64,000 nt of DNA, taken from the UHGV virus genome UHGV-0373904; one strand, given 5' to 3'. The position numbers and the translations under genes are program-made. The number at the start of each line of letters is the position of its first letter. Within the stretch, counting starts at the first letter, position 1. The stretch is from a virus. Below, in pieces: positions 29,343 to 30,950 of this stretch. The notes under the pieces were generated by a model, which saw nothing but the letters and a program-made list of their open reading frames with translations, searched no databases and had not been told where the DNA came from.

Positions 29343-30950
29343 CGTCTATGTAATAGCCTCTATACAACCCTTTCCCTTTCCTTCCTAGAATCTATCCCAC
29401 TAATTCGATAGAATCTATCTCATACCTTAAAAAGCAATAACTCTATAGTCTACTCTATAACCTTTTATCAAATCAACTTAAATAAAAGCCAATAACCCCA
29501 GAAAGGGGATGGCCCATTTAAACGCTCTATAAAGCTCTATAACAGCCTTATCAACCTAACTTAAGGGATTGCATTAACCAACCTTAAAAAGCTCTTTACA
29601 GGGCTTTATAGAGGCTTAAAAGAATCTTATAAGGTTATAAGCTTTATTATCTCGTTAGCTATCTTGTGAATATCTAAAAAGGGCTTGTTAGTGTCTTAAA
29701 AGTATGTTATAGGGGCTTAAAAGTTACTTCAAAGTTACGTAAAAGAAGCTATGAAGTTACGTAAATGCTAGCCCCCTTAACATTTTCTTAACAATTTCTT
29801 AACAATCCCTACATAGTTATGCTTGTTAGAGACTTGTTAGCCCCTTGTTAAATCTCTGTTAAGACCACGTAAAAGCCTTGTAAGAACCTTTGACATAGCC
29901 TTTAAAGCCCCTGTAAAGCCCTATAAAGAGGTATCTGTACAGTTGGGGTGTAATTACTAGGAAGAGGCTTAAAAGGGCTTACAAGGAGCTATAGAGAGCT
30001 TTTAAGAGGTATGTTTAAGGAATCACTAAGAAAGGAAAGGGAACGATAAGAAAGAGATAGTGACCATGTTAATAGCTTGTTAAAAAGATTAAACACTTGT
30101 TAGAGACTTGTTAATTATCTTAACAAAATAACTCTTAAAAATTAACTTGTTAGCTCTTGTTAGTCATCTGTTAAGACTCTGTAAAGACCATGTATCGACT
30201 GTTAAGAACTTGTTACAGCCTTGTTAGTTCTGTTAAGAATCTGTTAAGACCTCTGAAGAGATGTTAAGAGATTGAGAGAGTTGTTAAGAGATTGTTAAGG
30301 ATATTTTAAAATTCTGCAAAGTACTTGTAAGGGAGCTGTTAAGGGCTACCAAGCAGATATACATCTTCTACAGATATTTTTCAGTTCCTTCAAAGACCCT
30401 AAAAAATGACTTGATAGTCCTATTTTATAAAAATTTTAAAAATCTGAATAATTACCTATACAGTCTTTCTAAAATACAGGTAATAACAGGCTTATAAGAT
30501 ACCTTGTTAGTACCGTGTTAGACCTTGTGAGATAAGGTCTGTAAAGATATTCCTGTTAAGTTTGTTAAAACAGTCTATATAGAGGCTTAGTAATACCTAG
30601 TGAACACCTATAGAGAGTGTCATAGCTGACATAGAGATTAAGAGGTGTATAGGAGCTTCTAAGAAGGTGTAGAGAGATGGTTAAGGTGATTGTATAGGTT
30701 GTTAAGAAGGATTGTTAGAAGAGTGTTTAGAAGGGCTATTTAGAAGGGCTATACAGAGGGCTATTAAGACCACTAGATAGTTACTAAGATACTATATAGT
30801 ACTATATAACTATATAGAGAGTAAGATTAAGAAGGTTGTTAAGAAGGATAGATATTTTATTCACATATGATGGTGACCCAGAGGTTGGGACAACCGATAA
30901 AATTTTATAAAAATTAAAAAGCCCCCAATTAAGGAGGCTCTTAAGATATT
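29343..30950. repeat. 1.6 kb non-coding region dense in short word repeats
   Basis: no ORF of 60 aa or more on either strand; recurring TTGTTAAGA, CTTGTTAG, CTGTTAAG, GGCTTAAAAG, CTATATAG words; GTTGTTAAGAAGGAT occurs twice; lies between convergent transcription units. Confidence 0.7.

What the first reader, a model, noticed from the sequence alone, without database searches (positions are those of the whole stretch)
29343..30950. 1.6 kb coding desert saturated with short word repeats between convergent transcription units
No ORF of 60 aa or more on either strand. The sequence is built from recurring words (TTGTTAAGA, CTTGTTAG, CTGTTAAG, GGCTTAAAAG, CTATATAG, AAATTTTATAAAAATT); GTTGTTAAGAAGGAT occurs twice near the right end. 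The rightward small-gene array terminates on its left and the leftward block ends on its right. Candidate roles: replication origin, packaging signal or terminal-repeat boundary, arrayed protein-binding sites, or non-coding RNA.
Basis: seen in the sequence. Interest (0 to 1): 0.65.

Follow-up and report, generated by a model that had tools for sequence, protein, structure and literature searches.

The report
Phage genome-end repeat and packaging junction
This gene-free 1.6 kb stretch is where a Felix O1-like phage cuts its replicated DNA into genome-length pieces: it holds the 580-bp repeat found at both ends of the packaged chromosome, set inside a conserved array of about 58 short words spaced one DNA helical turn apart; the end repeat is already known for this phage group, but I found no description of the word array.

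Summary
Window 29279-30950 has no ORF above 35 aa. It is packed with 8-nt words of the form CTNNNNAG: 62 against 11.6±3.1 in shuffles. TGTTAR occurs 27 times against 1.8. Neighbouring words lie 10-12 bp apart.

The window comes from a Felixounavirus (Felix O1-like myovirus). At least five GenBank relatives deposited with their terminal repeat at the record ends start at window 29771, and four of them end at 30350. The experimentally sequenced 608-bp terminal repeat of phage UAB_Phi87 maps to 29779-30352.

So the desert is the concatemer junction: left flank, a 580-bp direct terminal repeat (DTR), then right flank. Both DTR edges sit in blocks that barely vary across three genera. Each edge carries the 9-mer CCCTTAACA, which occurs only twice in the 64 kb, in inverted orientation.

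The array is 74-79% identical in other genera, while the neighbouring protein is only about 50% identical. Most long indels come in multiples of about 11 nt.

The most likely role is cis-acting DNA for terminase recognition and end generation, as at the T7 junction, which has similar word arrays. I found no support for an origin of replication or a non-coding RNA.

The DTR itself is already published. The phased array appears undescribed. Interest is moderate.

The parts
29317..29341 (+). Rho-independent terminator ending the rightward small-gene array: stem AGCTCC/GGGGCT, 8-nt loop, T-run.
   Evidence: Read directly. The consensus scan did not list it. Terminators are annotated at the matching place in phages Moogle and Michonne.
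29343..29770 (.). Left flank of the junction. In the virion this unique DNA lies just inside the right-end repeat copy. It is conserved from about 29450. Phased words (CTTAAAAG, CTTTATAG and similar) begin at 29594.
   Evidence: Identity to Suspvirus and Mooglevirus is 0.58-0.86 per 50-nt bin from 29450.
29404..29427 (-). Small palindromic element (TATGAGATAGATTCTATCGAA) belonging to a family that sits at different places in relatives.
29594..30820 (+). Array of 58 CTNNNNAG words with AT-rich cores and 2-4 nt, less conserved spacers, repeating about every 10.8 bp. Sub-families are TGTTA words (15), nnAAAG words (13) and CTATA words (7). The array runs through the DTR and both flanks.
   Evidence: All 18 phages compared, from three genera, carry 50-63 units. 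Unit positions are more conserved than spacer positions.
29771..30350 (.). Direct terminal repeat (DTR), 580 bp. It is present once in the concatemer or assembly and at both ends of the packaged chromosome.
   Evidence: Base 1 of ZX4221, NBEco005, vB_EcoM_D4 and CRP22 aligns to 29771 and their last base to 30350. Their two end copies are 100% identical over 579-651 bp. Pr103Blw carries an annotated 'short direct terminal repeat' at 1-581 that starts at 29771. The experimental UAB_Phi87 repeat maps to 29779-30352.
29769..29778 (.). Near-invariant block TAGCCCCCTT spanning the left DTR edge (cut TA|GCCCCC).
29774..29782 (+). CCCTTAACA, 3 nt inside the left end. It is one of only two exact copies in the 64 kb.
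29776..29806 (-). Three TGTTAAG words in reverse orientation (CTTAACA on the + strand), 11 bp apart. All later TGTTA words but one (30120) point the other way.
30337..30345 (-). Second copy of CCCTTAACA (TGTTAAGGG on the + strand), 5 nt inside the right end, inverted relative to the first.
30337..30363 (.). TGTTAAGGGCTACC|AAGCAGATATACA. This is the longest near-invariant block (27 nt) in the 18-phage alignment and it spans the right DTR edge. It is the best candidate for a sequence-specific terminase cut or recognition site.
   Evidence: The 22-mer core is found exactly in 29 IMG/VR viral contigs.
30351..30950 (.). Right flank of the junction. In the virion this unique DNA lies just inside the left-end repeat copy. 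It holds more phased words (TGTTA and CTATA types) up to about 30820.
   Evidence: Identity is 0.90-0.99 within the genus, apart from one variable bin (30700-30749, 0.72).
30420..30454 (.). Conserved AT-rich, partly palindromic stretch (CTATTTTATAAAAATTTTAAAAATCTGAATAATTA).
   Evidence: (inverted repeat I18).
30917..30942 (-). Rho-independent terminator ending the leftward gene block.
   Evidence: A terminator is annotated at the matching place in wV8, KhF2 and Moogle.

Best explanation
The region is the concatemer junction of a Felix O1-like phage that packages DNA with short, exact, non-permuted direct terminal repeats.

Replicated DNA carries one copy of the 580-bp repeat (29771-30350) between successive genomes. 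During packaging the terminase complex recognises the junction and cuts or nicks at the two conserved edge blocks. These are TA|GCCCCCTTAACA on the left and TGTTAAGGGCTACC|AAGCAGATATACA on the right. Each holds the 9-mer CCCTTAACA, in inverted orientation. The repeat is duplicated, so that every packaged chromosome begins and ends with it.

The surrounding 1.25-kb array of CTNNNNAG words is proposed to be the cis-acting scaffold for this step. The words are spaced one helical turn apart, so their AT-rich cores face one side of the helix. That arrangement suits cooperative binding or wrapping by an oligomeric DNA-binding protein, such as a small terminase subunit or an accessory bending protein, which would position the nuclease at both edges.

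What is shown: the position of the ends (in relatives), the enrichment, phasing and conservation of the words, and the conserved edge blocks. What is inferred: that the words are protein-binding sites, that terminase is the binder, and the staggered-nick duplication model, which I recall from work on T7.
For: - Identity of the window: 256 phage records, almost all Felixounavirus and other Ounavirinae, match the region at up to 95%.
- End positions from deposited records: four independently deposited genomes with identical repeat copies at both record ends map base 1 to 29771 and the last base to 30350. Pr103Blw annotates 1-581 as a direct terminal repeat and starts at 29771. PhageTerm gave 581 bp for it (PMC8303462) and 613 bp for Ro111lw (PMC6454146).
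- Experimental ends: Bal31 digestion plus run-off sequencing of UAB_Phi87 gave a 608-bp repeat and no cohesive ends (PMC4837284). Its printed sequence spans exactly 608 bp in that phage's own genome and corresponds to window 29779-30352.
- Edges: the longest near-invariant block across three genera (27 nt) straddles the right edge, and a 10-nt block straddles the left edge. CCCTTAACA occurs only twice in the 64 kb, inverted, 3 and 5 nt inside the two ends.
- Selection on non-coding DNA: identity to Suspvirus and Mooglevirus is 74-79% over about 1450 nt. The adjacent 207-aa protein is only about 50% identical, and the flanking genes did not align to Mooglevirus (Moogle, Michonne, KMM4) by blastn.
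- Array: z=16-19 over shuffles and phasing of about 10.8 bp. All 18 phages carry 50-63 units, and words are more conserved than spacers. No indel is 3-5, 7-9 or 14-20 nt long, and most of those of 5 nt or more fall at 10-13, 21-27 or 32-33 nt.
- Precedent: the T7 junction has CCTAAAG words inside and on both sides of its 160-bp repeat, at 13/26-bp spacing.
- A terminase large subunit and a portal gene are present in the window.
Against: - The ends were not mapped on this phage's own virion DNA. The assignment rests on homology.
- Run-off sequencing and PhageTerm-type ends differ by 8 nt on the left and 2 nt on the right.
- No protein has been shown to bind the words, and no small terminase subunit is recognisable. 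The small ORFs upstream of the large subunit have unknown function.
- Indels in 11-nt units would also arise from simple slippage in any tandem array.
- The inverted 9-mer is not strictly kept in every genus. Four Moogle/Susp-type phages have CCCTTTACA on the left, and SUSP1 also has TGTTTAGGG on the right.
- From memory, the T7 word arrays themselves have no established function, so the analogy does not prove a role.
Confidence: 0.7

Rival explanations
1. The word array is an iteron-type replication origin. A phage initiator binds the repeated words and melts the adjacent AT-rich stretch (30420-30454). The terminal repeat merely overlaps it.
For: The region has repeated short words next to a conserved AT-rich segment and the non-coding DNA is strongly conserved. 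From memory, T7 has secondary origins near its ends.
Against: Fifty-eight degenerate 8-nt words over 1.25 kb is unlike the few longer iterons of known origins. DnaA boxes and IHF sites are not enriched. Transcription converges on the region, and cumulative GC skew shows a local maximum here and a minimum near 39 kb. The neighbouring genes have no recognisable function, so no initiator gene is evident.
Confidence: 0.12
2. The array is an end-organising, telomere-like element. A phage or host DNA-bending protein coats the roughly 1 kb at each chromosome end to protect it from exonucleases, to control ejection or entry, or to promote end-to-end recombination into concatemers, rather than to guide terminase.
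For: After packaging, each virion end carries about 1.0-1.2 kb of gene-free phased words. The genes at both ends point outwards. A preprint states that Bas63, a Felixounavirus, lacks a RecBCD inhibitor.
Against: No Chi site lies near the ends. About 1 kb is a trivial buffer against RecBCD. The strongest conservation is exactly at the cut sites, which points to end generation.
Confidence: 0.1
3. The words have no function. They are slippage-generated simple sequence that accumulates in a gene-free junction, and only the two cut sites matter.
For: Indels are mostly whole 11-nt units. The words are degenerate, with 33 different cores among 58 units.
Against: The array is better conserved across genera than the neighbouring coding DNA. 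Between 35 and 38 of the 58 units keep their exact position and frame in other genera, and word positions are more conserved than spacers.
Confidence: 0.05
4. The region encodes a structured non-coding RNA.
For: The minus strand of the DTR folds better than its shuffles (z=-3.35). The region contains long inverted repeats.
Against: Rfam gives no match below E=0.2. Promoter-like sites are not above chance. The long inverted repeats show 8 and 6 compensatory changes against 110 and 47 single-sided, pair-breaking ones. Both flanking transcription units end in terminators before the region.
Confidence: 0.03

Closest known systems
Short direct terminal repeats of Felixounavirus (UAB_Phi87, 608 bp, Bardina et al. 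2016, PMC4837284; Pr103Blw, 581 bp, PMC8303462; Ro111lw, 613 bp, PMC6454146)
   Same: It is the same element. The sequence is homologous, the ends fall at the same aligned positions, and it lies in the same place between the same two genes.
   Different: Those papers report only the length and sequence of the repeat. I found no description of the phased CTNNNNAG array, the inverted 9-mers at the edges, or the conservation across genera. The literature search was limited.
Phage T7 concatemer junction: a 160-bp terminal repeat flanked by short-repeat arrays (I recall these being named SRL and SRR by Dunn and Studier, 1983)
   Same: It has a short exact terminal repeat. One short word (CCTAAAG) recurs inside the repeat and in arrays on both sides. 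The junction is the cis-acting packaging substrate: T7 phagemids need the pac site and the terminal repeat (PMC13236587, citing Chung and Hinkle 1990).
   Different: T7 uses one 7-nt word at 13-bp spacing, about 20 copies over about 0.5 kb. Here there are 58 degenerate 8-nt words at about 10.8-bp spacing over 1.25 kb, in a myovirus with an unrelated sequence. From memory, the function of the T7 arrays is also not established.
pac sites with phased small-terminase binding boxes (Bacillus phage SPP1 pacL/pacR) and lambda cosB R sites
   Same: As I recall, several short sites flank a cut site, are bound by the small terminase subunit and bend the DNA. That is the mechanism proposed here.
   Different: Those phages package by headful or cohesive-end mechanisms and have only a few sites. 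This comparison rests on memory and was not tested here.
Iteron-type replication origins
   Same: Both have directly repeated short words next to an AT-rich stretch.
   Different: The number, length and degeneracy of the words differ. There are no DnaA boxes and no adjacent initiator gene, and transcription converges on the region.

Membership tests
Short exact direct terminal repeat (T7-type, non-permuted) genome end / concatemer junction | The same sequence of a few hundred bp is present at both ends of the virion chromosome. | tested here: met
   Met in close relatives. In ZX4221, NBEco005, D4 and CRP22 the first 579-651 bases equal the last 579-651 bases at 100% identity, and these map to window 29771-30350. 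This was not tested on this phage's own virion DNA.
Short exact direct terminal repeat (T7-type, non-permuted) genome end / concatemer junction | The ends are fixed and unique, not circularly permuted and not cohesive. | not testable with these tools
   This is shown experimentally for the relative UAB_Phi87: two specific restriction fragments were lost after Bal31 digestion, sequencing run-offs were sharp, and there were no cos ends (PMC4837284). PhageTerm classed Pr103Blw and Ro111lw as DTR phages.
Short exact direct terminal repeat (T7-type, non-permuted) genome end / concatemer junction | The sequence at the repeat edges is conserved, consistent with site-specific cutting. | tested here: met
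   Near-invariant blocks of 27 nt and 10 nt straddle the right and left edges in 18 phages from three genera.
Short exact direct terminal repeat (T7-type, non-permuted) genome end / concatemer junction | The large terminase subunit belongs to the clade that makes this kind of end. | tested here: inconclusive
   A large terminase subunit is present at 47114-48730 (phrog_979). Its clustering with DTR-type terminases is reported for Felix O1-like phages in PMC4837284. I did not recompute it.
T7-like short-repeat arrays beside the terminal repeat | A short word recurs in regularly spaced arrays on both sides of the terminal repeat and inside it. | tested here: met
   CTNNNNAG units run from 29594 to 30820, spanning both flanks and the DTR. 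The T7 arrays were read for comparison. The resemblance is in architecture only; the sequences are unrelated.
Iteron-type replication origin | A few identical iterons of about 17-22 bp, host DnaA or IHF sites, an AT-rich unwinding element and an adjacent initiator gene. | tested here: not met
   The units are degenerate 8-mers, 58 in number. DnaA and IHF patterns occur at chance level, with only one 1-mismatch DnaA-like site in the region. The neighbouring genes have no recognisable function. An AT-rich stretch is present.
Cohesive-end (cos) site | The virion ends carry single-stranded complementary overhangs. | not testable with these tools
   This is excluded experimentally for UAB_Phi87: heating restriction digests did not change the pattern (PMC4837284).
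Known non-coding RNA families (Rfam 15) | A covariance-model match at or above the family's gathering score. | tested here: not met
   The best match scores 25.4 bits against a gathering score of 55, at E=0.21. No tRNA lies in the region.

The most novel reading that the evidence does not exclude
The 1.25-kb phased array is a dedicated wrapping platform. A phage protein oligomer winds the junction DNA around itself through about 58 one-turn-spaced contacts. This superstructure, rather than two independent cut sites, brings both repeat edges to one nuclease and sets the repeat length. It would be a packaging nucleoprotein machine much larger than any described cos or pac site. It would also give a function to the long-unexplained word arrays at T7-type genome ends.
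Probability: 0.15. Interest if true: 0.7.

Novelty: new member of a known kind. Interest (0 to 1): 0.38.

Why it matters
- It explains a conspicuous gene-free, repeat-laden stretch present in every Felix O1-like phage. This is a group widely used for Salmonella and E. coli typing, biocontrol and therapy.
- It gives exact coordinates for opening and annotating such genomes. Most deposited records are opened arbitrarily, and some annotate spurious small proteins inside the repeat.
- How short terminal repeats are recognised and duplicated is understood only in outline, and mainly for T7 and T3. This junction has unusually rich, conserved and regular cis-acting sequence, so it is a good second system for testing that mechanism.
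- It marks a region that should be kept intact when engineering these phages.

Tried and rejected
- Non-coding RNA. Rfam at permissive thresholds gave only chance-level matches. Promoter-like sites are not above shuffles. The good RNA fold of the minus strand comes from the opposite orientation of words, not from selected pairing.
- Conserved cruciform or hairpin. The two longest inverted repeats (29592-29622/29900-29930 and 29774-29800/30319-30345) show 8 and 6 compensatory changes against 110 and 47 pair-breaking ones. Single-stranded DNA folds at both edges are no better than shuffles.
- Host-factor sites. DnaA boxes, IHF consensus and Chi all occur at chance level.
- Hidden genes. There is no ORF above 35 aa, and indels of 11 nt would break any reading frame.
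- Compositional (AT/GC) periodicity alone. The power at 11.1-11.6 bp is among the highest in the window but is not unique. The phasing is clear only at the level of word positions.
- Function of neighbouring genes. Ten flanking proteins match only families of unknown function in PHROGs and nothing in Pfam.
- A more distant genus (Kolesnikvirus, Erwinia phage Fifi106). The stored record version is not opened at its repeat and its first 900 nt look like coding sequence, so it gave no comparison.
- The GenBank record of UAB_Phi87 is not opened at its ends. The ends were recovered from the paper's supplementary figure and an IMG/VR copy instead.
- A literature search for the word TGTTAAGA returned only irrelevant papers.

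Full report
**1. The observation**

Window 29279-30950 lies between the stop codon of an 82-aa gene on the + strand (29030-29278) and the stop codon of a 207-aa gene on the - strand (30951-31574). The largest ORF inside it is 35 aa.

The sequence is visibly built from short words. The direct-repeat and tandem-repeat tools return many overlapping families with periods of 10-13 bp. Their consensus units include TCTGTTAAGAC, CTTAAAAGTTA, CCTGTAAAGCC and GGCTTAAAAG. All of these share the frame CT-N4-AG.

Against 1000 dinucleotide-preserving shuffles of the region:
- TGTTAR occurs 27 times against 1.8±1.3.
- CTNNNNAG occurs 62 times against 11.6±3.1.
- Positions lying in repeated 9-mers number 222 against 35±11.

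The words are concentrated at 29-31 kb and are rare in the rest of the 64 kb. Twenty-five of 57 neighbour spacings are 10-12 bp, against 5.0±2.1 for random placement. All pairwise distances peak at 10-11, 21-22, 31-33 and 42-44 bp, which gives a period of about 10.8 bp.

**2. What the window is**

The region matches 256 phage records, almost all Felixounavirus and other Ounavirinae (Felix O1-like myoviruses), at up to 95% identity. Annotation of a close relative, Bas63, gives the context:
- To the left are nucleotide-metabolism genes, rIIA/B, and a run of small rightward genes of unknown function.
- To the right is a leftward block of small genes that includes the endolysin.
- Further right come 26 tRNA genes, then the terminase large subunit (47114-48730), portal, protease and major head protein.

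**3. The chromosome ends map inside the region**

Several GenBank relatives are deposited as linear virion genomes with the terminal repeat at both ends. For ZX4221, NBEco005, vB_EcoM_D4 and CRP22, the first 591, 651, 581 and 579 bases are 100% identical to the last bases of the record. In all four, base 1 aligns to window 29771 and the last base to window 30350.

Pr103Blw annotates 1-581 as 'short direct terminal repeat' and also starts at 29771. Its paper reports a 581-bp repeat from PhageTerm (PMC8303462). Another Felix O1-like phage, Ro111lw, has 613 bp (PMC6454146).

There is also experimental evidence. Bardina et al. (PMC4837284) showed for UAB_Phi87 that two restriction fragments disappear on Bal31 digestion, that there are no cohesive ends, and that sequencing runs off at defined ends. 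They printed the 608-bp repeat. That sequence spans exactly 608 bp in the phage's own genome. It corresponds to window 29779-30352, which is 8 nt and 2 nt from the PhageTerm-type ends.

Whichard et al. had already inferred short terminal repeats for Felix O1 from pulsed-field sizing (PMC3185647). The coding desert is therefore the concatemer junction: left flank (29343-29770), DTR (29771-30350) and right flank (30351-30950). For this particular phage the assignment rests on homology.

**4. Anatomy**

*The two edges.* An 18-phage alignment spanning Felixounavirus, Suspvirus and Mooglevirus shows that the longest near-invariant block in the whole region is 27 nt. It straddles the right edge: TGTTAAGGGCTACC|AAGCAGATATACA, 30337-30363. 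A 10-nt block, TA|GCCCCCTT, straddles the left edge.

The 9-mer CCCTTAACA occurs exactly twice in the 64 kb. One copy is at 29774 on the + strand and the other at 30337-30345 on the - strand, 3 and 5 nt inside the two ends. Read inward from either end, the chromosome begins with two or three TTAACA words about 11 bp apart.

*The word array.* Fifty-eight CTNNNNAG units run from 29594 to 30820, through the repeat and both flanks. Their cores are AT-rich. There are three main sub-families:
- TGTTA words, mostly in the DTR and right flank.
- nnAAAG words, mostly in the left flank and the left half of the DTR.
- CTATA words, mostly in the right flank.

*Terminators.* Terminators bracket the region at 29317-29341 on the + strand (read) and at 30917-30942 on the - strand.

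**5. Evidence of function**

The non-coding region is 74-79% identical over about 1450 nt to phages of other genera. The adjacent 207-aa protein is only about 50% identical to the same phages, and the flanking coding DNA did not align to Mooglevirus (Moogle, Michonne, KMM4) by blastn.

All 18 phages carry 50-63 units with the same spacing. Between 35 and 38 of the 58 units keep their exact position and CT..AG frame in the other genera. Positions inside the words are more conserved than the 2-3 nt on either side: 0.72-0.87 against 0.59-0.65 in the distant set.

Indels are largely quantised. Nine are 11 nt and four are 12 nt. Others fall at 21-27 and 32-33 nt, with single cases of 6 and 29 nt and a 49/50-nt pair. 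None is 3-5, 7-9 or 14-20 nt long. This fits gain and loss of whole units. Slippage alone would also produce that pattern, so it is only weak evidence for a constraint on helical phase.

The region is not deleted in any relative. It is found in 257 records, and the neighbouring gene in 254.

**6. Mechanism**

The best-supported account is that this is the cis-acting substrate for T7-type packaging. The concatemer carries one repeat copy per junction. The terminase complex recognises the junction and cuts or nicks at the two conserved edges. The repeat is copied, so that both daughter ends carry it.

The inverted CCCTTAACA motifs fit one nuclease complex addressing the two edges in opposite orientation. 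That would suit the staggered-nick and strand-displacement model proposed for T7, which I recall from memory and did not test.

The one-turn spacing of words with AT-rich cores places equivalent sites on one face of the helix. This suits cooperative binding or wrapping by an oligomeric protein, for which a small terminase subunit is the obvious candidate. No such subunit is recognisable, and no binding has been shown.

I put about 0.95 on the identity of the region as the junction and DTR. I put about 0.45 on the array being specifically a terminase or packaging scaffold.

**7. Rivals**

- Origin of replication. DnaA and IHF patterns occur at chance level. Transcription converges on the region and cumulative GC skew has a local maximum here. 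No initiator gene is evident next door.
- End protection or ejection control. No Chi site lies near the ends, and the strongest conservation is at the cut sites. This reading is not excluded.
- Neutral slippage. This is contradicted by conservation above that of neighbouring genes.
- Non-coding RNA. Rfam gives no match and promoter-like sites are at chance level. The long inverted repeats change without compensation: 8 and 6 compensatory changes against 110 and 47 pair-breaking ones. There are no hairpins at the edges. The better-than-shuffle fold of the minus strand (z=-3.35) reflects the opposite polarity of words.

**8. Comparison with what is known**

The repeat itself is already published for this genus. 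The closest analogue in architecture is the T7 junction. Reading T7 directly shows the word CCTAAAG three times inside the 160-bp repeat and in arrays on both sides, at 13- and 26-bp spacing. T7 phagemids need the pac site and the terminal repeat to be packaged (PMC13236587).

This junction differs from T7 in its word, its spacing (about 10.8 bp against 13 bp), its size (58 units over 1.25 kb) and its host virus type. I found no paper that describes the array in Felix O1-like phages. The search covers open-access literature only.

**9. Verdict**

The element is a new member of a known kind. Its conserved, helically phased array is undescribed but not surprising in kind. It is a good experimental handle on how short terminal repeats are recognised and duplicated. 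Interest is 0.38.

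Noticed in passing
Related loci (junction regions of ZX4221, CRP22, wV8, SUSP2, VpaE1, UAB_Phi87); sites equivalent to window ~29517, ~30030, ~30122 and ~30147: A 22-nt palindromic mini-element, (A/T)ATTGGTATTGTTACCAATCCC, is inserted at several different sites and in both orientations in different phages. It is absent from this window. It looks like a small mobile hairpin element that targets the junction region.
   Followed up: partly
window 29404-29427; related loci near window ~30366 and ~30626: Other patchily distributed hairpin inserts were seen: GGTAGATTCTACCGAATCAACT in SP116, VpaE1, Moogle and KMM4; GGGTTACTGTTAAGTAACACAG in CRP22, VpaE1, KPS64 and KMM4; and TATGAGATAG..CTATCGAA. 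The window has a reverse-oriented copy of the last one at 29404-29427.
   Followed up: partly
window 22400-25600: This is the second most repeat-rich part of the window by repeated 8-mers. It lies among the small rightward genes and probably corresponds to the 57-bp and 39-bp intergenic direct repeats reported for Felix O1 (PMC3185647). One of those contains the words GGGGCTTAAAAG and CTGTAAAG, which are also used in the junction array.
   Followed up: no
window 41381-46684: A cluster of 26 tRNA genes lies on the + strand, just upstream of the terminase, portal and head genes.
   Followed up: no
window ~38400-39100: This is the divergence point between the leftward block and the rightward block, and it coincides with a local minimum of cumulative GC skew. 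If skew reflects replication at all, this would be a better origin candidate than the junction.
   Followed up: no
GenBank GU169904.1 (Staphylococcus phage SA1), 136013-136563: A 147-kb record labelled as a Staphylococcus phage carries this Felix O1-type junction at 92% identity. It is probably a chimeric or contaminated assembly.
   Followed up: no
Related records LMP34, Meda, Michonne (gp111), ULIM9, vB_EcoM_D4 and others, at positions equivalent to window 29343-30950: Several deposited genomes annotate one to four 'hypothetical proteins' inside the terminal repeat or word array. Given the 11-nt indels and the lack of conserved ORFs, these are probably false gene calls.
   Followed up: partly
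window 46573-46800 and 46907-47107: Two small ORFs of unknown function (75 and 66 aa; phrog_20550 and phrog_4397) lie directly upstream of the terminase large subunit. That is the usual position of a small terminase subunit.
   Followed up: no
L028 (Bas63) 5414-8300, equivalent to window ~5400-8300: In Bas63 the anaerobic ribonucleotide reductase gene nrdD is annotated as joined from two pieces around a putative homing endonuclease, which suggests an intron. I did not check whether this window has the same interruption.
   Followed up: no
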